Origin: Octopus sinensis
Lineage: Eukaryota
Direction: 5' to 3'
Assembly (NCBI RefSeq): GCF_006345805.1
Contig: NC_043003.1
Coordinates: 52,080,001-52,144,000 of the forward strand
DNA length: 64,000 nucleotides
Shown here in pieces: positions 6,117 through 64,000 of the stretch (its first letter is position 1; each line of letters starts with the position of its first letter). A program made the position numbers and the translations under genes. The notes beneath the pieces are model-generated. The model was given only the letters and a program-made list of their open reading frames with translations. It searched no databases and had not been told where the DNA came from.

Positions 6117-6606
6117 TAGAAGTTAAAACTCATATTACTAAACAAAACGAAGTCAGTGGTAAATTTGCTTGGAAAAAGTTGCTAGGGAGCAAGTGGAATG
6201 ACATGAGTTGAGAATCCCTAATCTAACGTGTCCTACCTTTCCTGGCATACAACTACAGTATGTGGTTTGGGGAAGATTCGGTTGCTATTTCTAGCAGGTT
6301 TAGTTAGAGACCATGTAGACGGCTTCTTGTTGATAGCCTTGTTACTGTCCTCATTACTGCTACGCGCTGGTTGAATCGTTTGAGCGTCGGAGAAAATGTA
6401 TTCCGGTATTCGTTCCTACTACTTACATTCTGAGTTCAAATCACGCTAATTTTTACATTGCCTTTTCTCTCACTCTGGGGTCGATGAAATAAAGTACCTG
6501 TCTAATATTGAGATTGAGGGTATCGACTAGCTCCTTTCCTTTAAAACTACTAGACTTGTGCCTAAATTAGAAACAGTTATTTTAATTTTTTTTCTTAATA
6601 TAATAG

Positions 6607-6837
6607 CTATTTCTTTATTACTCACAAGGGGCTAAACACAGAGGGGACAAACAAGGACAGACATAGGTATTAAGTCGATTACATCGACCCCAGTGCGTAA
6701 CTGGTACTTAATTTATCGACCCCGAAAGGATGAAAGGCAAAGTCGACCTCGGCGGAATTTGAACTCACAACGTAACGCAGACGAAATACCGCTAAGCATT
6801 TCGCCCGGCGTGCTAACGTTTCTGCCAGCTCGCCGCC
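6607..6837 (-). mobile_element. tRNA-derived SINE family A (octopus-type), near-intact
   Basis: Minus strand reads GGCGGCGAGCTGGCAGAAACG (A-box-like) ... GAGTTCAAATTCC (B-box), then GCCTTTCATCCTTTCGGGGTCGATAAATTAAGTACC. Many copies occur in the window. Confidence 0.88.
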
Positions 6838-9099
6838 TTTAATATAATAGCAACACCAATTTGGTAGTTGAGTTTGATGATAGTAGACGACGATGACAAC
6901 GGCAAGAATGACGAGGAGGTGGTGGTGGTGGTGGTGGAGGAGGAGGAGGAGGAGATATCGTTTCTGGCCAATGAGTTCGCAAAGAGCAAACCTGAATGAA
7001 TGAACAAACCCCATCATCAAAGTCGTTCCGGCTATGACCATCGTTTTTATTTTTTATTTTATTTTTGCCCTTTTACGCCACAAAATCATTTTCAATTAGT
7101 TTTTTAATGCTCATCACATTAAATATACAAACATCACTGTAACTATTGATTTTCATACATATGACCTCTCTGAAAAAGTTAACGTTAGTGATTCATATAT
7201 ATATATATTCTACTTGTGAATAATATTTGTCATCACTGTATTAGCAAGAATAATAACAACTATATTTTGCTGACGAGAGCGAATAAAACCGAAATATATC
7301 CAGAATTGTCTCCCTTGTCTGTTGAAATAAAATAATATCAAACATTCCTCGCCGCATCTTTAATTCTCTTTTACTTGTTTCAGTCATTGGATTCCGGCAT
7401 GTTGGAACATCGCCTCGAAGGGTTTTAGTTAAACAAATGGGCACCAGTACTTATGTTTTAATCCTGGTACTTATGCTGTCGTTCTCTTTTACTGAGAACG
7501 ACAGTATAAGTTTACTGAGATGTAAACAAACCAACAACGATTGTCAGATAGTGAGGGGACAAACACAAAGATACACACGCACGCGCGCATATACATACAT
7601 GCATACATATAAAATTTAATGTGCAATCTTTTAAAATAAGAGTTACTAATAGTTTCTTGCCATTAAAATGTGTGGTTGGGTAGGTTTTATAACGTGATTT
7701 GTGACTCCATGCAATCTTCGGGCGCTGGTACATGAGAAACAACGAGAAAAAAACGAGAAGATGGTTGATATAAAAAAAGTGGAATGAAAAAAACCAAAAG
7801 GGTGATAAAAAAGGTAAAAAAAGGAAAATTAGAGTTACATCCCTTTTGACCGTAAAAGTCATAATTAAACTAGTTGTAGAATAATTCAACAAGAGGAGTC
7901 CTAAGTCTGCGAGGCAACTGCTCAATCCGGTGAGGGCGGAAGAAATTTTCGCCACAAGAAATTTTCCTAATGCATGCATTTGCCGAAAATTTCAGATCTG
8001 GAATTAAGTAGTCTGGTGAAATTTTCAGTTCTAAAAAGAATGTGTGATCTTTCAGCTACGCGTAAGTTGCATTTCTTAGACCATTTATATATAGCATGAA
8101 TTACTCCACGATTCTTCATTTGATTGCATGTAGTGTGCTGTTGGTCTTCAAACCCTATATGTAGCAAGCCAACTTAGTGGCTTTACTTTTGTCGACTTGG
8201 TGGAAATAAGACTGGTGGTTCGCTTAACGCTTTTTTAAAGGCCCTGATACTTGCCCACTTCACCAAACGTGAATGATAAACTCTCACGTATATAAGGCAA
8301 AAAGTTGCAGCAACACTTCAAGATAGCTGAAAAGAAAAGTTACATCGGTTTATGCGAATCCAAATCCACTCACAAAGCATCAGTCGGCCCGGGGCTATAA
8401 GGGTGGACCAAAGCCGTGTAAATGAAATTTAGTAAGCTGAAACTGTGTGGGGAAACAGCGGGAGAAACCTTTGTTGATCTTGAATAGTAGATTTAATACG
8501 GTATAAAAGTTACCTCGGTTAATGCGAATCCAAATCCACTCACAAAGCATCAGTCGGCCCGGGGCTCAAGGCGTCGCGCAGTGGGACTGAACCCAAAACC
8601 ACGGCTGCGAATCAAGCTCCTTAACCACTCACCCATGCCTAGGCCTGAATACTTCAAACTTTTTTATGCCCGACTTTTAATGCTTCAACGCGAATTTAAC
8701 TATTATTTGACAATCAGGAACTGCATTGTTGAAGATAGAGCATGATTTAAGAGAAATGTTGTTGCTATTTTCAGCATGTTTTGAGGCATGATGTGTGCGA
8801 AATAATTTATTACAGTTTAAAACAACAACAATAACTAACTCACACAGAATGTAATACAACTACATCAAGAAACAAACGTCACTCTTTCCCTTATCTTTGT
8901 ACGACAAAACACTCCAACTGCAAAACATTCTCCCTTCCCCTTCCCTATTCCAAGTAGAAATATCAGAACAACTGACATTTGTTTGCTCGTTTCTTTTTAA
9001 GCAGGGCTTGGTGGGGCAAAATAGGCCGTCTTTTTCTTTCTCTTTTTCTTCTATATCTAATTCTTTTATATTCTTTACCAGTATTGTTTTTTCCATTAA

Positions 9100-16935: not shown

Positions 16936-17162
16936 TATTATATAATATATATATATATTATATATATATTACATTATATAAAAGGGCTTAGTAAAATAAA
17001 TTACTTTGCCGCATACTGAACTCATTAGAAATAGCAGCTAAAAACTTTTTTAAGGCTATTTCTAATACTTAAAGAAAATCTCTCTCATATATAGTGTTTG
17101 CATAATTTAACTCACAAAAGTTTGGGGGTAATGACATCGAAAAATCAAATGCTAAGGTTATT

Positions 17163-17215
17163 CGAGAAAGTACGTTTCAAGATTAGTCAAAAACAACATT
17201 TCTATCATCGGCTCG
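17163..17215 (-). ncRNA. Hammerhead-like motif, array left arm (further copies at 17710-17760 and 18257-18308)
   Basis: Reverse complement of the motif described at 19676. This copy and the 17710 copy each have a lesion or sequencing error in the stem III palindrome. Confidence 0.62.
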
Positions 17216-19675
17216 GAAATTCCTTGGTTTGGATTTGGAAACACTGAAAATAAGAACATACCCTCTCGAAGATCTGCTCCCAACTAACAGTGCCAGCAAA
17301 TTCAAAATAAGCAAGCGAAGAATCTCTGTTCCCCTTTCCACCAGCATGGGTTAAAATCATCAAACTCTATGCTTATTTCGGTAAAGTCCGAAGCATTAAT
17401 CAGAGGGAGATTAATTATAATTTCAACAATTGAGGGCAAAATTAATTAATTATTAATCAATTTCACCAAGTGTTCAGTATGCAAAGGGACCATTCAAGGC
17501 GAATTCAAATTATTACATTATATAAAAGGGCTTAGTAAAATAAATTACTTTGCCGCAATACTGAACTCATTAGAATAGCAGCTAAAAAAAACTTTTTTAA
17601 GGCTATTTCTAATACTTAAAGAAAATCTCTCTCATATATAGTGTTTGCATAATTTAACTCACAAAAGTTTGGGGGTAATGACATCGAAAAATCAAATGCT
17701 AAGGTTTATCGAGAACGTAGTTTCAAGATTAGTCAAAACAACATTTCTATCATCGGCTCGGAAATTCCTTGGTTGGATTTGGAAACACTGAAAATAAGAA
17801 CATACCCTCTCGAAGATCTGCTCCCAACTAACAGTGCCAGCAAATTCAAAATAAGCAAGCGAAGAATCTCTGTTCTCCCCTTTCCACCAGCGTGGGTTAA
17901 AATCATCAAACTCTATGCTTATTTCGGTAAAGTCCGAAGCATTAATCAGAGGGAGATTAATTATAATTTCAACAATTGAGGGCAAAATTAATTAATTATT
18001 AATCAATTTCACCAAGTGTTCAGTATGCAAAGGGACCATTCAAGGCGAATTCAAATTATTACATTATATAAAAGGGCTTAGTAAAATAAATTACTTTGCC
18101 GCATACTGAACTCATTAGAAATAGCAGCTAAAAAACTTTTTTAAGGCTATTTCTAATACTTAAAGAAAGAAAAATTCTCTCATATATAGTGTTTGCATAA
18201 TTTAACTCACAAAAGTTTGGGGGTAATGAATCGAAAAATCAAATGCTAAGGTTATTCGAGAACGTACGTTTCAAGATTAGTCAAAACAACATTTCTATCA
18301 TCGGCTCGGAAATTCCTTGGTTTGGATTTGGAAACACTGAAAATAAGAACATACCCTCTCGAAGATCGCTCCCAACTAACAGTGCCAGCAAATTCAAATA
18401 AGCAAGCGAAGAATCTCTGTTCTCCCCTTTCCACCAGCGTGGGTTAAAATCATCAAACTCTATGCTTATTTCGGTAAAGTCCGAAGCATTAATCAGAGGG
18501 AGATTAATTATAATTTCAACAATTGAGGGCAAAATTAATTAATCTTCGAGAGGGTATGTTCTTATTTTCAGTGTTTCCAAATCCAAACCAAGGAATTTCC
18601 GAGCCGATGATAGAAATGGTGTTTTGACTAATCTGAAACGTACGTTCTCGAATAACCTTAGCATTTGATTTTTCGATGTCCTTACCCCCAACTTGTTGAG
18701 TTAAATTATGCAAACACTATATATGAGAGAGATTTTCTTTAAGTATTAGAAATAGCCTTAAAAGTTTTTTAGCTGCTATTTCTAATGAGTTCAGTATGCG
18801 GCAAAGTAATTTATTTTACTAAGCCCTTTTATATAATGTAATAATTTGAATTCGCCTTGAATGGTCCTTGCATACTGAACACTTGGTGAAATTGATTAAT
18901 AATTAATTAATTTTGCCCTCAATTGTTGAAATTATAATTAATCTCCCTCTGATTAATGCTTCGGACTTTACCGAAAAAGCATAGAGTTGATGATTTAACC
19001 CACGCTGGTGGAAAGGGGAGAACAGAGATTCTTCGCTTGCTATTTGAATTTGCTGGGCACTGTTAGTTGGGAGCAGATCTTCGAGAGGGTATGTTCTTAT
19101 TTTCAGTGTTCAAATCCAAACCAAGGAATTTCCGAGCCGATGATAGAAATGTTGTTTTTGACTAATCTTGAAACGTACGTTCTCGAATAACCTTAGCATT
19201 TGATTTTTCGATGTCATACCCCCAAAACTTTTGTGAGTTAAAATTATGCAAACACTATATATGAGAGAGATTTTCTTTAAGTATTAGAAATAGCCTTAAA
19301 AAAGTTTTTTAGCTGCTATTTCTAATGAGTTCAGTATGCGGCAAGTAATTTATTTTACTAAGCCCTTTTATATAATGTAATAATTTGAATTCGCCTTGAA
19401 TGGTCCCTTGCATACTGAACACTTGGTGAAATTGATTAATAATTAATTAATTTTGCCCTCAATTGTTGAAATTATAATTAATCTCCCTCTGATTAATGCT
19501 TCGGACTTTACCGAAATAAGCATAGAGTTTGATGATTTAACCCACGCTGGTGGAAGGGGAGAACAGAGATTCTTCGCTTGCTTATTTTGAATTTGCTGGC
19601 ATGTTAGTTGGGAGCAGATCTTCGAGAGGGTATGTTCTTATTTTCAGTGTTTCCAAATCCAAACCAAGGAATTTC

Positions 19676-19727
19676 CGAGCCGATGATAGAAATGTTGTTT
19701 TGACTAATCTTGAAACGTACGTTCTCG
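19676..19727 (+). ncRNA. Minimal type I hammerhead-like motif, array right arm (further copies at 18600-18650, 19133-19185 and 20216-20267)
   Basis: CGAG-CCGATGA-TAGAAATGTTGTTTTGACTAATCTT-GAAA-CGTACG-TT-CTCG. Stem I is CGAG/CTCG, the core is a U4C variant, stem III is the palindrome ACGTACGT, and the predicted site is GUU. Confidence 0.72.
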
Positions 19728-20619
19728 AATAACCTTAGCATTTGATTTTCGATGTCATTACCCCAAACTTTTGTGAGTTAAATTATGCAAACACTATATA
19801 TGAGAGAGATTTTCTTTAAGTATTAGAAATAGCCTTAAAAAAGTTTTTTAGCTGCTATTTCTAATGAGTTCAGTATGCGGCAAAGTAATTTATTTTACTA
19901 AGCCCTTTATATAATGTAATAATTTGAATTCGCCCTTGAATGGTCCCTTGCATACTGAACACTTGGTGAAATTGATTAATAATTAATTAATTTGCCCTCA
20001 ATGTGTTGAAATTATAATTAATCTCCCTCTGATTAATGCTTCGGACTTTACCGAAATAAGCATAGAGTTTGATGATTTAACCCACGCTGGTGGAAAGGGG
20101 AGAACAGAGATTCTTCGCTGCTTATTTTGAATTTGCTGGCACTGTTAGTGGGAGCAGATCTTCGAGAGGGTATGTTCTTATTTTCAGTGTTTCCAAATCC
20201 AAACCAAGGAATTTCCGAGCCGATGATAGAAATGTTGTTTTGACTAATCTTGAAACGTACGTTCTCGAATAACCTTAGCATTTGATTTTCGATGTCATTA
20301 CCCCCAAACTTTTGTGAGTTAAATTATGCAAACACTATATATGAGAGAGATTTTCTTTAAGTATTAGAAATAGCCTAAAAAAAAAGTTTTTAGCTGCTAT
20401 TTCTAATGAGTTCAGTATGCGGCAAAGTAATTTATTTTACTAAGCCCTTTATATAATGTAATAATTTGAATTCGCCTTGAATGGTCCCTTTGCATACTGA
20501 ACACTGGTGAAATTGATAATTAATTAATTATTTTTGCCCTCAATTGTTGAAATTATATATATATATATATATATATATAATAAATAAAATAAAACATGCA
20601 TATATATAAACATATATGT

Positions 20620-37742: not shown

Positions 37743-38297
37743 AGTACACCGGGTGAAATGCTTAGTGGTATTTTGTCTGCCGTTAAGTTCTGAGTTCAAA
37801 TTCCGCCGAGGTCAACTTTGCCTTTCATCCTTTCGGGGTCGATAAATTAAGTACCAGTTACGTACTGGGGTCGATGTAATCGACTTAATCCGTTTGTCTG
37901 TCCTTGTTTGTCTCCTCTGTGTTTAGCCCCTTGTGGGTAGTAAAGAAATAGACATTTCGTCTGCCGCTATGTTCCAAGTTCTAATTCTGCCGAGGTTGAC
38001 TTTGCCTTTCATCCTTTCGGGGTCGATTAAAAAAGTACCAGTTGTGCACTGGGGTCGATATAATCGACTTAATCCATTTGTCTGTCCTTGTTTGTCCTCT
38101 CTGTGTTTAGCCCCTTGTGGGTAGTAAAGAAATAGGTATTTTGTCTGCCGTTACGTTCTGCGTTCAAATTCCGCCGAGGTCGACTTTACCTTTCATTCTT
38201 TCGGGGTCGATTAAATAAGTACCAGCTACGCACTAGGGTCGATGTCATCGACTTAATCCCTTCCCCAAGCTGCTCTTGTGGCAAAAATTTGAAATCG
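37743..38297 (+). mobile_element. SINE family A with ~180 bp internal unit in three tandem copies
   Basis: Three repeats of TTCYGCCGAGGTYRACTTTRCCTTTCATYCTTTCGGGGTCGAT..AAGTACCAG..GGGTCGAT..ATCGACTTAATCC. Confidence 0.88.
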
Positions 38298-54902: not shown

Positions 54903-56290
54903 AGACTCTTCTGCCGGTTTCGACGTATGAGGATCCTACAACCTGCTCTTACTTTGTCAGTCATAATGCTCATATTGAATGTGACATTTAAGTCCCGCCA
55001 ACGATTTGCAAAGTATGAGGATTACAGGTCAGTGCAGGTGGTATATTTGCAGCCGCTTTTCTCCTTTCTCTTGCACTCCGAAGCCTGTTAAAGCTGTTTG
55101 CAACAAAGTTTCTAATACCATGTTGACACAACGATCTCCATTTTGTTCGCTCCAAGGCTGTTCGCTCAAAGGTATTGTGAATTATCTTCACTGCTAAGAG
55201 GTTACTCTTCAGCTTGTCCTTATATCTGAGCCGTGGTCAACCAACATTCCTGTGGTCACTATCAACCTGGCTGTACATGAGGACTTTGAGTATTCTTTCG
55301 TCCCTCATTCTGATGACATGGCCAGCCCAGCACAATTGTGACTGCATAAGGAAACTCTCCATTCCACCAATCTTACAGTTGCTAAACAGGTCAGCATTAG
55401 AAACTCTGTCTTTTAGTGAATAACTGCAGATTGTCCTGAGACAGCCTTTATGGAAGATGTCGAGTTGGTTAATGTGTCGTCTAAAAGGTATCCACGATTC
55501 TGAGCCATACAAGAGTGTAGTAAGAATGGCAGCTTTATAGACTGGTACTTTGGTGTCAAGTTTGATGGCCCTTTCATTCCATAAGCGATGACGGAGTTTG
55601 CCAATTGCGTTGGTTGCCTTTGCAATACGGTTGACGATTTTATTATCAAGGGAAGCACTTGAATTCACATTACTACCTAGATATGTAAATGACATCACAC
55701 AATTTGGGTTTTCCCCATCAACATGTATAGGAGTGTGAGAAAAATTGTGAACTGGTGCCCTCTGCTTGACACCTCGAATTTGTTTATGAGTAGGGCAAGG
55801 TTGGTGGATTACTTCCGTCTTCTTTATGCTGATGGTCAAACCAAAGGCTTTACATGCAGCAGAAAACCGGCCTATAAGTTCCGGAGCTTCTTCTAAGGTG
55901 GTCGCTGTTAGTGCAGCATAACCTACAAAAAGTAGATCTCGAATGATACTGATGCATAGCAGTGTTCTGGCTTTGAAACACTGATGATTGAATAGTCGAC
56001 CACTTGTTCGAAACTGGAATTTGACACTACTTTGTATGTCATCAAAAGCATACCTCAGCATCACTGAAAAAAAGAGTGCAAACAAAACAGGGGTCATAAC
56101 ACAACCTTGGTTTCTGGGTTTTGTAACGTCGAAGGAAATCGAAGATTCCCACCGGACACGACAGCAACCTTCATTCCATCATGAAAAGAGATAACATTCA
56201 ACATTTTGTCGGGTATACCAAGCTTTTGCAGAACTTTCTATAGTACATGTCGGTTAACAGTGTCGAAGGCCTTAGTAAGGTCAACGAATA
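54903..56290 (-). mobile_element. 5'-truncated RTE-clade LINE
   Basis: FVDLTKAFDTVNR, QGCVMTPVLF, FGLTISIKKTEV, FTYLGS, LLYGSESW and WAGHVIRM motifs (ORF 55237-56097 and flanks). The catalytic ADD motif is decayed (LFVGY). Confidence 0.92.
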
Positions 56291-58115: not shown

Positions 58116-59356
58116 TCACAAATACACATATACACACACACATATATATACACATTGTTTATATCTATGTGCGTGTATATACGTAGATCTACATACATAT
58201 ATACACACACACACACACACATATATACATACACACACATACCTGCGTAGATACATGCACATGCACACATATAATGTCATACATACACACTGATACATGA
58301 TGTGTGAGTGTGTGAGTGTGTGTGCGTGTGTGTGTGTGTGTGCATGTGTGTATGTGTAAGCGCATACTAAGATATATTATTAAAAATCTCGAGCTAACGA
58401 GTTCGTTCATTAGACACGCTCATTACACACACATACACGTACACTCACACGCAGTAATATATATGTATGTAACTATGTATATGTATATGCATACGTACAT
58501 AGAAAGGTAGAGAGGGAGACAGATACCCGAATTAGTAAAGATACCCGAATTAGTAAGGCAATCAATATTGAAGAGCTACAACACTACTCCACTGTTACCA
58601 ACATCATATTGCAAACCTCAAATTAGTCACTCACACCCAACATTCATAAAGTTTATCGAAAACAGAACTGTTCTTGGTATCTTTGTGTTCGTCTCCAATT
58701 GATACTAAGTGTTTCGTGTCAGAGGTTATAATTATCCTCAGCCATATGGGTGTGGGATTGGCAGAACTGTTGGATCACATGTTTATGTTCTGTTGTCAAG
58801 TTCTGCTGTAGTTAATTTTGCTTTTCAAGTCGCACTTGATAGAATAAAGTACTAGTTAAAAACTGGTGTCGATTTAATCGGCTATTCCCACCCTATTAAG
58901 AAACCCTTATAATCTTTAGCTTTTTCAACCTTGTCCAATTCAATCCTTTTTAAAATCACTATAACCTTGTGACAGAGAGGAGGAGGGGCGACCCTTTTAA
59001 GGGAACCAGTTGGCACGTCACATTCAACCCACAACGATAGCAGCTATTACACATGATTCTATGGTGCCCCTCAGTTAGCACTGCGAAGTCAACAAGAACT
59101 TTTGAAAATTATCTATAATTCCTAGACTGAAAGTTCTTTGAGAAAGATGTTCACAGAATTCTCATTTACATCGGGTAACACCCCAGCACATCTTCACTCC
59201 TTCATTCAACTAATCCACTCTAGAAGAAAGTAGTCCATTGACTACCGACTGCATTTTCGACCTAAGACAATGAAGCGTTGTATCACGGTCTATGCTTGAC
59301 ACAAAGGATGGCAACTAGCTCAAAGAAAGAAGCTGTGAGAAAAAAAGGTATATTTC

Positions 59357-60758
59357 TTATTTATTTATTGCCCACAAGGGGCTAAACATAGAGTGGACAA
59401 ACAAGGACAGACAAAGATATTAAGTCGATTACATCGACTCCAGTGCGTAACTGGTACTTAATTTATCGGCCCCGAAAGGATGAAAGGCAAAGTCGACCTC
59501 GGCGAAATTTGAGCTCAGAACATAACGACAGACGAAATACCTATTTCTTTACTACCCACAAGGGGCTAAACACAGAGAAGACAAACAAGGACAGACAAAC
59601 GGATTAAGTCGATTATATCGATCCCAGCGCGTAACTGATACTTATTTAATCAACCCGCGAGCATGAGTTACAAGCTCGCTCAATGGCATCTTTTTGACCC
59701 CGGGCAGTTGTTGTAGGTGAATCCCTACATCATCGGGGAACCCATTTACAAATGCCAGTCGGGCTGCTCTCTCCATTCCTTCTCCGGCAAAACCGGCCAG
59801 AGTCGCTAGCCTTCTAGCTTCCGCCGCAAAATCATCCACCTGGCCTCCCGTCCACCTGATTGCACCCAGCTTAGCGAAAGCTGTGTACTCGCATTCTGTG
59901 TATGCGTCACACAAGCGCCGCTCTATATTCCCATCGCAGAGCCGTTCTTTTTCGTCCATTTCCAGGTAAAGCGACAACGCACTTCCTTCCAAATACAGGG
60001 CCATAAGACTCGCCACGTCGCTTATGCCCTGCAGTCTCGCCACCAGCCTGATTTTCTGAATCCAGGCCACTACATCGCCTTCGCCGTTAAAAGGTCTGAC
60101 GACGTCACTGGCGATCCTAATTTTTGCCGACATCGTGTTGACAAAAATGTTGAAAAAAATGTGAACGCTGACTAAATGCCGAAATAGCTTGTGGTTGATG
60201 AAAGGAGCACAACAGAACAAGGAAATAGGAAACAGAAGTGCAACAGGGTCTTACCTGACAGGGGATGAAGTCGGATGGCCTTCAGCCAACTTGCTCGCGT
60301 TTCGTCGTCTCCGTGCCTTGCTCCGGTCTGTCGCCACCGCTCGATGCCGCACGTGCCTTTTGTCGCTCACTTCCGCTTCCGCCGGCGCATGCGCCCTGCA
60401 AGACCTGTAAGCATCACTTCCGCTCCCGCCCGTCCCGTCACACTCCTTCATCACCACACCACAAGGATGAAAGGCAAAGTCGACCTCGGCGGAATTTGAA
60501 CTCAGAACGTAGCGGCAGACGAAATACCTATTTCTTTATTACCCACAAGGGGCTAAACACAGAGGGGACAAACAAGGACAGACATAGGTATTAAGTCGAT
60601 TACATCGACCCCAGTGCGTAACTGGTACTTAATTTATCGACCTCGAAAGGATGAAAAGCAAAGTCGACCTCGGCGGAATTTGAACTCACAACGTAACGCA
60701 GACGAAATACCGCTAAGCATTTCGCCCGGCGTGCTAACGATTCTGCCAGCTCGCCTCC
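59357..60758 (-). mobile_element. Tandem SINE family A multimer interrupted by an LTR-element fragment
   Basis: Head at 60758 and repeated units. The SINE sequence breaks at ..ATCAACCCG (59657) and resumes at AGGATGAAAGGC (60464). Confidence 0.85.
59658..60463 (-). mobile_element. LTR retrotransposon fragment (putative 5' LTR 60190-60458 + gag-like ORF)
   Basis: GC-rich island. Minus strand begins TGTGGTGATGAAGGAG and the segment ends CTCCTTTCATCAACCACA (TG..CA with inverted termini). ORF MSAKIRIASDVVRPFNGEGDVVAWIQK..LYLEGSALSLY..AFVNGFP is gag-like. Confidence 0.8.
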
Positions 60759-61152
60759 TTGAAAAAAAGTTATATTTCTAACAGACGATGCACACATATA
60801 CTGACCATTAGCGACCCATAGCAAACGTCACTGCCTCGGCAGAGTCCATCAGCTGCAGAGTACCTCCTTAATCTATTGGTTTGACGATGATAGCAGGTGG
60901 ACTTTCTAACCACCGGAAAATGTCCTTTCTGCGATAAATAAAAGAACAGGTGTTATACTTTGACAGATATTCCCTGAGGCAAGGTACAATGCTCACCAAA
61001 ATAGTGTCATTATTTATATGATCTCTTCTCAACAATTTACACATTTTATACCAAACTGCTGAGTGAATACACGAGCGCGCGCACATGTGTAACGGGGAGA
61101 GAGAGAGAGAGAGCTTGTGTTTTGTTTTTGTTATTATATGCTTATATATATA

Positions 61153-61860: not shown

Positions 61861-62047
61861 TGTTAGAAAATAGTGTTTGTGTCTATGCGTGCGTGTATGT
61901 GTATGTCTGCTTCATGTTATCGTATGTACTTATGTCGTCTATATGTCTTATATGTATACATACGTGTAAATGTGACACGTATGAATTTGTATGTATGTGT
62001 GCTTATGCGTGTGTGTGTTTGTATATATATATAATATATATATATAA

Positions 62048-62360
62048 TTAGGGTTCAGCAAAAATTGCTTTACCACACACCGAACTTTTAGAAATAGCAG
62101 CCAAAGAATTTAGCTATTTCCTCTACTTTAAGAAGAGTCTCCCAGATAATGTATACTCAAAAACATTACACGTAGGTATAGAGGGAAAAATAACGAAAGT
62201 TCACTCGAAAGATTGATTACTTGTGAACGCGTTTCTGGGTTAGTTAGATATAGAGATGCTAGAAATACATCCCTATTCCAACATTCCTTTCATCAGCACA
62301 AGATTTCATTAAATTTAAATTTGAGAGCACTAAAAATCGAACTTACCCATCTGATTTGAG

Positions 62361-62365
<5 letters not shown>
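62048..62365 (-). mobile_element. Solo diverged relative of the array unit, with canonical hammerhead at 62220-62302
   Basis: 62048-62150 aligns by eye to the array unit start. Minus strand CTTGTG-CTGATGA-[long stem II]-GAAA-CGCG-TT-CACAAG. (TA)n lies on both sides. Confidence 0.82.
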
Positions 62366-62449
<84 letters not shown>

Positions 62450-62463
62450 ACATACATACATAC

Positions 62464-62510
<47 letters not shown>

Positions 62511-62998
62511 ATAAAGAATAATATATATATATATAAGAATCTTGTTATGTTTGTTTATATAAATATGCATATACATGTGTATATAACTATATAAGTGCAT
62601 GAAGGCACGTAGCTTAGTGGTTAGGGTATTTAGCTCAGGATCGTATGATTTCGATTACCAGCAATGTTTTGTGTCTCTGAGCAAGACATTTATTTTGAGT
62701 TGCTCCATTTCACTCAGCCAACAAAAAATGTGTTGTACCTGTATTTCTGTGTTATGCTTAATCTCCCTGAGAACTGAGAGTATGCGTGTCTATTGAGTGC
62801 TCAGCCACTTCCACGTTATTTCCACGAGCAGGCTGTTTCATCGATCGGCTCAACTGGAACACTCGTCGTCGAAACCGACGGAATGCCAGTTTATCCATAT
62901 AAGTGTGTATATTTGCTTATCTGTATGCCTGTGAGTGTGTGTAGAATATAAAGTCAGGCAATATGAGATGAATATATTTCACCTCTTGATATCCATAT

Positions 62999-63364
62999 TA
63001 CGACGGCCGTTTCGCAGCCAACATCATGCAAAAGTAATTTATTTTAGTGTATAATAAATTATTTTACATGTTTTCTTTAGGATGTATGCTCTAAATTGCA
63101 TAGTACTATTGTACATTTTACAAACCAATGCAGATACAGAAGGCTAGCTCTTTAGATCAATAGAATATCATGGTTATATTAATTTTTCAACTACGGTATA
63201 TACATAGAAAAAAAAATAGTCTTCAAATTTATAATGTATGGAAGACCACAAGGAGTTGAAAATTGATCTGACCACGATATTCTGTCGAGCTGAAGATCTA
63301 GCCTTCTATATCTGCATCCGTTTTGCAAAATGTACAAAAGTACTATGCAATTTATAGCATACAT
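62999..63364 (-). mobile_element. Old PLE-like remnant: decayed hammerhead (62999-63081) + ~110-bp fold-back
   Basis: Minus strand CTAAAGA-[CATGTAAAATAATTTATT/AATAAATTACTTTTGCATG]-..C-GAAA-CGGCCG-TC. Diverged inverted arms at 63082-63192 and 63254-63364. Confidence 0.65.
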
Positions 63365-64000
63365 ACTAGTACAGGCATGTAAAATAATTCTGTAATAAGC
63401 ATCCGCTGGCCATGAGTGATAAGTTACCAGCTTCGGGTGGAAATATTGTGAAAAGAACACAACCATGGTAAAAGAATGAATATACGTAGGAAATTAGACA
63501 GAGGTATACCTGGGATTCTAGACAACTCTAAGGAACTGTAGGCAGACAGAGAATATTATAAATGTTACGTTTTGTTAAGATCGTGTTCTATTCCAAAATT
63601 TTAAAAAACGTCTATTTCTAATTCAGTACGTGGCGAGGCACTTAGCTGACCCCTGATTATAATTATGTATATAATTATAGAATATTTTAATCTTTTCGGT
63701 TTGAACGGCAGTTCTTAACATAATTTCTAGGTAACTAAAAAAATTTTAACTTTCATATACTGGTAGAATGTGTTTATAAAACATCTTTTTCTCTTGGCTT
63801 TATTGAGAAACTTCTATAGTTTGTAAGATATTTGGTCTTTAATTTCTTCAATTTCTGCAATTTCAACCTATCACTGGCGTCTATAGAGTTAAAAAGTTCC
63901 GAATATTTTGTATAATTTACCTAAACCAGTTTTTTTAACGTACTGACAACTTGGTAATTAATTTTACCCTATATATATATATTATATATATATATATATA

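What the first reader, a model, noticed from the sequence alone, without database searches (positions are those of the whole stretch)
62048..62365. Diverged solo homologue of the array unit shows structural covariation of the ribozyme
Seen: the tail aligns with the array unit (AGGGTTCAGCAAAAATTGCTTTACCACACACCGAACT..AGAAATAGCAGC vs AGGGCTTAGTAAAATAAATTACTTTGCCGCATACTGAACT..AGAAATAGCAGC). At the equivalent position it has a canonical CUGAUGA/GAAA core. Stem I sequence is different but still paired (CUUGUG/CACAAG vs CGAG/CUCG), the palindrome is different (ACGCGU vs ACGUACGU), and stem II is longer but keeps the same AAU-GUU...RAC-UAA internal-loop signature. Inference: selection has acted on RNA structure, which is the best in-window support that the array motif is a real ribozyme. 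The AAU/UAA loop may be a tertiary contact.
Basis: partly seen in the sequence, partly recalled or inferred. Interest (0 to 1): 0.75.

Follow-up and report, generated by a model that had tools for sequence, protein, structure and literature searches.

The report
Twin-loop hammerhead retrozyme superfamily copy
This 318-base stretch is a cut-short copy of one of many related non-coding repeat families in an animal genome whose RNA is predicted to fold into a self-cutting hammerhead ribozyme with a matching internal loop in each of two stems, and which likely spread as RNA circles copied by Penelope-like retrotransposons.

Summary
62048-62365 (minus strand) is a 5'-truncated copy of its own dispersed family (B, 581-nt unit), a sister of the window's 546-nt tandem array (family A). 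Both belong to a genome-wide superfamily of about 11 clusters of non-coding repeats carrying a type I hammerhead. Covariation across families is strong: 11 of 14 pairs change on both sides. A model built without A or B finds this copy at 58 bits and all 7 array copies. The loops sit 6 and 4 positions from the core and match the known loop 1-loop 2 docking motif. Copies sit in (TA)n with two fixed 3' ends, scattered 5' ends and head-to-head inversions, the Penelope-like signature. Verdict: a non-LTR retrozyme, a known kind, with a hammerhead variant (internal loop 2, long distal hairpin) that Rfam misses and that my searches did not find described in animals. Cleavage, circular RNA and the helper element are not shown.

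The parts
62048..62365 (-). 5'-truncated single copy of retrozyme family B (about 320 of 581 nt); 3' end at the TATA-like site, lacks the ~100-nt tail
   Evidence: 5' end at unit position 444, 3' end at 186, counted from the cut site
62214..62310 (-). predicted type I hammerhead ribozyme
   Evidence: 58.2 bits, E about 1e-15, with a model built without families A and B; fold z -3.15
62297..62308 (-). 5' strand of stem I: outer stem (62308-62306), loop 1 AAU (62305-62303), inner 6-bp stem (62302-62297)
   Evidence: pair probabilities 0.78-1.0
62290..62296 (-). catalytic core CUGAUGA (C3-A9)
   Evidence: sequence
62236..62289 (-). stem II: weak base AAGG/CCCA (two mismatches, two G-C pairs), internal loop 2 AAU (62285-62283)/UAA (62242-62240), distal hairpin 62282-62243
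   Evidence: pair probability 0.52 for the two basal G-C pairs
62226..62235 (-). GAAA, palindromic stem III ACGCGU and predicted cleavage site after U17 (62226)
62214..62225 (-). 3' strand of stem I: inner stem (62225-62220), loop 1 UAA (62219-62217), outer stem (62216-62214)
62048..62135 (-). conserved 3' box shared with the array and the other families, ending at a TATA-like site that is one of two fixed 3' ends
62022..62047 (.). (TA)n target microsatellite, 3' side of the element
62363..62535 (.). (TA)n target microsatellite, 5' side of the element
16981..20555 (.). family A array: 546-nt units, 3 hammerheads on the minus arm and 4 on the plus arm, head to head (inversion near 18545), both outer ends in (TA)n; core variant CCGAUGA, U.U at the base of stem II
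63609..63975 (+). 3' fragment of an older sister family (no ribozyme left), interrupted by a ~210-nt insertion, ending in (TA)n
   Evidence: 84-92% to E/G-type copies over 60-78 nt; sequence

Best explanation
The stretch is a truncated genomic copy of a non-coding repeat family whose RNA is predicted to fold into a type I hammerhead ribozyme and which likely moves as a non-autonomous retrozyme using a Penelope-like reverse transcriptase. Likely cycle: a tandem array is transcribed; two hammerheads pair through their palindromic stem III and cut; loop 1 docks on loop 2 (5' U of loop 1 with 3' A of loop 2) to speed the cut; the unit-length RNA is ligated to a circle; a Penelope-like RT-endonuclease nicks (TA)n, primes at one of two UAUA-rich sites about 100 nt apart and copies round the circle, giving arms of up to several units that are often joined head to head. 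Shown: homology, family structure, covariation, insertion anatomy, no joined ORF. Inferred: cleavage, dimer need, docking, circles, the helper. This copy is single, truncated and weak at the base of stem II, so it is probably not a source element and would cut poorly alone.
For: Patterns against reversed controls: 651 vs 0, 707 vs 4, 387 vs 19. In the first 30 hits of a pattern that fixed only core and stem III, UAA stood at the loop 2 place in 26 of 30 and at the loop 1 place in 21 of 30, and in 0 of 30 at each of six shifted offsets; stem I paired at 0.89 in register against 0.21-0.53 shifted. Across 12 clusters, 96 of 108 stem cells paired; the best of 20,000 permutations gave 89. In 21 hand-picked rows, 11 of 14 pairs changed on both sides; 89% of cells paired against 26-39% when slid. 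A leave-out model hit this copy and 7 of 7 array copies at 31-58 bits, next best 13.6. Loop nucleotides fit the motif of PMC2632901 (passages): among the 27 family hits, counted by eye, loop 1 first U 27, loop 1 last pyrimidine 25, loop 2 first purine 26, loop 2 last A 27. The dimer fold with open cores beats two monomers in 4 of 5 cases. Two fixed 3' ends recur in 4 of 4 families tested and 5' ends are scattered; one end of each kind in 18 of 26 head-to-head pairs. Units within an array, both arms, differ by 0.4-0.8% against 2.0-2.6% between arrays. Long open Penelope-like ORFs with (TA)n ends exist in the genome.
Against: No cleavage, circle or RNA end was observed. Position 10.1-11.1 is unpaired in 14 of 21 rows. 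Sub-lineages with an extra A.C mismatch in stem II still spread (AAGG clade 9 rows, support 100/99; CAGG clade 9 rows, 97/91), which fits tolerance or relaxed need for the ribozyme. The family A monomer does not fold as a hammerhead in its minimum-energy form (z -0.20), and its dimer is no better than two monomers (-21.8 vs -22.6). One of five measures (further pair types) did not exceed shuffles (313 of 500), and the rows are related, so these counts are not probabilities. No autonomous element sharing this sequence or ribozyme was found. Only 1 of 9 predicted frog retrozyme dimers cut in vitro in bioRxiv 2026.07.22.740005. Within-array likeness also fits local amplification; in 3 of 10 arrays another array was as close as or closer than the opposite arm.
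Confidence: 0.8

Rival explanations
1. The units are orphan pseudo-LTRs of autonomous Penelope-like elements; arrays grow locally by unequal crossing-over and no RNA circle is involved (the route discussed in bioRxiv 2026.07.22.740005).
For: Units of one array are alike. Hammerheads, (TA)n targets, inversions and one-sided tails are all features of Penelope-like elements (PMC8557442 passages).
Against: Of 218 sequences searched, 5 had a Penelope-like ORF fragment nearby and none was seen joined in sense to a unit (L013 inspected, the others judged by coordinates only). Unit follows unit at the junction in A, A2, A3 and B. Family A arrays are dispersed over many chromosomes at 97-100% identity, with the same two ends. 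The pLTRs of the two PLE families sampled are not homologous.
Confidence: 0.1
2. The hammerhead fold is conserved but no longer needs to cut: it serves as a protein-binding or packaging signal for the helper reverse transcriptase, and uncut multimeric transcripts are the template.
For: 5' ends do not pile up at the cut site (A 2 of 56 within 5 nt, 1.1 expected; B 1 of 43, 0.8 expected). Lineages with weakened stem II spread. PLE hammerheads cut slowly in vitro (PMC4209133).
Against: The catalytic core, the H17 rule (A, C or U in the families listed) and the docking nucleotides are kept across divergent families. A circular template would also give no pile-up. Two-pair stems II and U.U at 10.1-11.1 are known in active hammerheads (PMC3088659 passages; axolotl HHR_Amex2, PMC7229834).
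Confidence: 0.08
3. Chance resemblance or a DNA-level satellite with no RNA structure.
For: The ribozyme part alone aligns at only E 0.2-2.4. Rfam finds no hammerhead.
Confidence: 0.02

Closest known systems
Non-LTR retrozymes of animals (coral, mussel, axolotl; PMC7229834; bioRxiv 10.64898/2026.07.22.740005)
   Same: Non-coding, low-GC tandem units, one type I hammerhead per unit, short palindromic stem III, solo truncated copies, co-occurrence with Penelope-like elements; U.U at the base of stem II as in axolotl HHR_Amex2.
   Different: Units of 546-581 nt (170-400 nt in the 2020 paper, but within 51-972 in the 2026 preprint); loop 2 is an internal loop with a variable distal hairpin; strict (TA)n targeting, head-to-head arms and two fixed 3' ends. 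The 2020 supplement with the mussel hammerhead drawings could not be read, so overlap with those variants is not excluded.
Canonical type I hammerhead with the loop 1-loop 2 motif (Schistosoma Sm-alpha type; PMC2632901, PMC4209133)
   Same: 6-bp stem I and 4-position stem II; loop 1 first U and last pyrimidine; loop 2 first purine and last A.
   Different: Both loops are symmetric 3x3 internal loops of the same AAU/UAA consensus. An internal loop 2 is known from the CChMVd minus-strand hammerhead, but I found none described for animal type I motifs. 10.1-11.1 is often mismatched; U4C recurs (family A and some D, F and B2 copies).
Pseudo-LTR hammerheads of Penelope-like elements, Neptune/Nematis type (PMC4209133, PMC8557442)
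   Same: (TA)n targets, 5' truncation, inverted arms, a tail on one end only, palindromic stem III; some E/F-type copies keep an extra nucleotide after A9.
   Different: No ORF; tail about 100 nt rather than 30-40; full rather than minimal hammerhead; no sequence shared with the pLTRs of the two PLE families sampled.
UAA/GAN internal loop (PMC2615604 passages)
   Same: Near-invariant UAA strand facing a purine-rich 3-nt strand.
   Different: The facing strand is mostly AAU, not GAN; no structure was tested.

Membership tests
Type I hammerhead ribozyme | Core C3-A9, G12-A14, A15.1-U16.1, H17 in type I order | tested here: met
   family A has U4C
Type I hammerhead ribozyme | Three helices supported by covariation | tested here: met
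   stems I and II covary; stem III pairs are invariant, with its palindrome varying in length
Type I hammerhead ribozyme | G10.1-C11.1 pair at the base of stem II | tested here: not met
   A.A in this copy; unpaired in 14 of 21 rows. Exceptions are known to be active
Type I hammerhead ribozyme | Loop 1-loop 2 docking nucleotides at 6 and 4 positions from the core | tested here: met
   25-27 of 27 per position, counted; sequence match only
Type I hammerhead ribozyme | Match to an Rfam hammerhead model | tested here: not met
   0 matches at gathering score in the window; no hammerhead among 132 matches at E up to 1 in 10 loci
Type I hammerhead ribozyme | Self-cleavage | not testable with these tools
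   needs a bench assay
Non-LTR retrozyme | Tandem non-coding units, each with a type I hammerhead | tested here: met
   families A, A2, A3 and B; this copy itself is single
Non-LTR retrozyme | No ORF and no LTR-flanked body | tested here: met
Non-LTR retrozyme | Expressed as unit-length linear and circular RNA | tested here: inconclusive
   only assembled contigs of guessed RNA runs were available
Pseudo-LTR of an autonomous Penelope-like element | Joined to an RT/GIY-YIG ORF | tested here: not met
   only 2 PLE families were sampled out of 29,489 first-look candidates
Penelope-mobilised element | Microsatellite target, 5' truncation, inverted arms, one-sided tail | tested here: met
UAA/GAN motif | GAN strand opposite UAA; cross-strand A stack | tested here: inconclusive
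   the facing strand is AAU in most clusters; 3D structure not testable

The most novel reading that the evidence does not exclude
A long-lived lineage of circular RNA replicons, renewed in about 11 successive families with no coding relative, uses a hammerhead variant with twin AAU/UAA internal loops as its docking module. Its genomic copies record rolling-circle reverse transcription by a Penelope-like enzyme primed at two fixed UAUA sites on the circle, which would be direct genomic evidence for how animal retrozymes move.
Probability: 0.35. Interest if true: 0.72.

Novelty: new variant of a known kind. Interest (0 to 1): 0.5.

Why it matters
How animal retrozymes are mobilised is stated as open in both papers read. 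This superfamily gives young arrays (97-100% identical), fixed priming ends, candidate helper ORFs in the same genome and a natural covariation series, so the rolling-circle and Penelope-helper model can be tested directly. The hammerhead variant escapes Rfam, so similar motifs may be uncounted in other animal genomes. The single copy at 62048-62365 is itself probably just an insertion.

Tried and rejected
Expression: no RNA holder listed on record. Four runs laid on family A were contigs only and cannot show ends, strand or circles. Whether this insertion exists in other individuals or species stays open. Pile-up of 5' ends at the cut site: not seen; the 5 of 16 near-cut ends in A3 lie at the query edge, and those whose junction was printed run on into the ribozyme. 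Autonomous partner: two PLE families sampled (38 loci); their terminal repeats share no sequence with A or B, and the model found no such hammerhead in their repeats in 17 loci (the L160 hit is a separate insertion on the other strand). Outside this genome the exact twin-loop pattern gave 0 hits in prokaryote genomes and 1 each in metagenome and viral contigs, the same sequence and poorly paired; no other animal genomes could be searched. Earlier findings of the scan: none. A supposed hammerhead family at 62960-63500 was dropped: the model finds nothing there. Literature searches for the variant found no description. Luense et al. 2016 was not held and the PMC7229834 supplement was unreadable; either may bear on novelty.

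Full report
Observation. The 3' part of the element aligns with 7 of 7 units of the array at 16981-20555 (E 1e-10 to 4e-4; score 66 against a best of 34 in 300 shuffles). The ribozyme part does not align significantly by sequence (E 0.2-2.4) but lies at the same distance from the conserved box (125 and 128 nt). The host is a 2.72-Gb animal genome; that it looks like an octopus is my recall from its size and repeats, not a tool result.

What it is. It is not a strayed array unit. A search of the genome scored 40 of 2,132 candidates and gave 46 matches, the full-length ones at 91-97% identity. A 25-place pattern for its ribozyme gave 55 exact matches and 0 in the reversed control. This family B has a 581-nt unit, seen as a partial tandem. 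The array is family A: 546-nt units, 278 matches from 40 of 1,252 candidates scored, the 150 listed at 97-100%. The window copy covers about 320 nt of the B unit and is flanked by (TA)n on both sides.

The superfamily. Three patterns found further families: 651 against 0 control, 707 against 4, 387 against 19. From the loci held at that point, 174 distinct hits gave 172 linked by their 3' body and 12 single-linkage clusters at 84%. Five clusters had several copies, seven were singletons, and one singleton (L130) is a chance hit. The families are alike along the unit as far as copies extend and none runs into an ORF.

Covariation. The cleanest test used the first 30 hits of a pattern that fixed only the core and stem III. 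UAA stood 4 nt before GAAA in 26 of 30 and 6 nt after the cut in 21 of 30, and in 0 of 30 at each of six shifted offsets. Stem I paired at 0.89 in register and 0.21-0.53 when shifted. Three of the 30 look like chance hits, near the control rate; they are included in these counts. Across the 12 clusters 96 of 108 stem cells paired, against a mean of 72.9 and a best of 89 in 20,000 permutations. In 21 hand-picked rows, 11 of 14 pairs changed on both sides and the covariation score was 0.586 against 0.266 shuffled and 0.07-0.16 slid; one measure, further pair types, did not exceed shuffles. The rows are related, so these are not probabilities. A covariance model built from 16 copies of other families, with no A or B, found this copy at 58.2 bits and all 7 array copies at 31-41 bits; the next match had 13.6. 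Rfam found no hammerhead.

The loops. Stem I carries the same AAU/UAA loop as stem II, 6 pairs from the core, and loop 2 begins after 4 positions: the spacing of canonical type I hammerheads (PMC4209133, parts 1-2 of 4 read). PMC2632901 (passages) defines the docking motif as loop 1 first U, a pyrimidine at or near its end, loop 2 first purine and last A. Among the 27 family hits, counted by eye, these hold in 27, 25, 26 and 27. The contact is therefore probably the known one, set in two symmetric internal loops. An internal loop 2 has a precedent in the CChMVd minus-strand hammerhead in the same paper. A likeness to UAA/GAN (PMC2615604, passages) is partial and untested.

This copy. Its stem II base is AAGG/CCCA. 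Of the 55 family B matches, counted by eye, 24 have CGGG, 18 CAGG, 6 AAGG and 7 other. In a tree of 51 copies built without these four letters, AAGG types form a clade of 9 rows (100/99) and most CAGG types another (97/91), so weakened stems were inherited and still spread. The window copy differs at 1 of 316 sites from the majority of 7 sister copies, which differ at 8-22; a young insertion from a conserved source is my reading, not shown. It folds as predicted (z -3.15), but stem III cannot close stably alone. A two-copy fold with open cores is 6.7 kcal/mol better than two monomers here, better in 4 of 5 cases, and not better for family A. Dimer dependence of such motifs is described in PMC7229834 (parts 2-4 of 6) and PMC6765202 (passages). 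Two-pair stems II and U.U at 10.1-11.1 can be active (PMC3088659, passages).

How it moves. In A, A2, A3 and B the 3' ends cluster at two places, about 185-205 and 285-300 nt after the cut, both UAUA-rich and both followed by (TA)n; 5' ends are scattered. In 18 of 26 head-to-head pairs one arm has each kind of end (A 7 of 8, A2 4 of 5, A3 2 of 4, B 5 of 9; some misses are merging artefacts). PMC8557442 (passages) describes inverted arms, one-sided tails and (TA)n bias for Penelope-like elements. 5' ends do not gather at the cut site (A 2 of 56, B 1 of 43), so templates read through the ribozyme, as a circle or an uncut multimer would. Units of one array, both arms included, differ by 0.4-0.8% against 2.0-2.6% between arrays (A2 28 units, A3 19 units), which fits one template per array but also local amplification. 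Open RT-GIY-YIG frames of up to 923 codons with a CX4CxxC linker (Neptune or Nematis type) and (TA)n ends are present. Their terminal repeats are unrelated to A and B, so the helper is not identified.

Comparison and novelty. This fits non-LTR retrozymes (PMC7229834) and their proposed Penelope origin (bioRxiv 10.64898/2026.07.22.740005, parts 1-3 of 5), which covered no mollusc and found cleavage in 1 of 9 dimers tested. Searches for this variant or for cephalopod hammerheads found no description; a 2026 octopus repeat annotation has no occurrence of ribozyme, hammerhead or retrozyme in its main text (PMC13282606, passages). PMC6155905 was seen as passages only. An unread supplement and an unheld paper may hold similar variants.

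Verdict. A real, covarying hammerhead motif in a retrozyme superfamily: known kind, new variant. Activity, circles and helper are inferred. Interest 0.5.

Noticed in passing
L042:1424-1560 and 13 other loci (alignment A2); window 63620-63632 with about 63935-63947: A second conserved helix of 7 or more pairs encloses the TATA-like site, pairing the 3' box with the tail. RNAalifold predicts it; two of its pairs show a change on both sides and several show G-U changes. Support is modest and a DNA inverted repeat is not excluded. The window copy at 62048-62365 lacks the 3' partner.
   Followed up: partly
window 62048-62365: The copy is almost identical (1 of 316 sites) to the majority form of its subfamily while 7 sisters differ at 8-22 sites; unexplained.
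   Followed up: partly
window 63609-63975: Fragment of an older sister family with a ~210-nt insertion that appears flanked by a 9-nt direct repeat; insertion not identified.
   Followed up: partly
window 62960-63420: An inverted pair of ~180-nt segments seen by eye, unrelated to the superfamily by alignment and not hit by the model.
   Followed up: no
L188-L195: A young Penelope-like family with open frames of 773-923 codons, tandem and inverted copies, a ~40-nt one-sided tail and, in L188, a minimal hammerhead-like core beginning UUGAAGA.
   Followed up: partly
L091, L092, L081: Families B2 and B3 have a longer, non-palindromic stem III, suggesting hammerheads that could act as monomers.
   Followed up: no
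L196/L197:601-669: The single hit in metagenome and viral contigs (same sequence) has hammerhead core boxes around a possibly branched stem; stem I pairs poorly, probably chance.
   Followed up: no
window 55237-56178 (-) and 59642-60250 (-): Open frames resembling a LINE reverse-transcriptase end and a retrotransposon gag-like protein (labels from recall).
   Followed up: no
window 37770-38259, 6602-6847, 59352-59597, 60523-60768: Copies of a SINE-like repeat, one in a 184-nt tandem.
   Followed up: no
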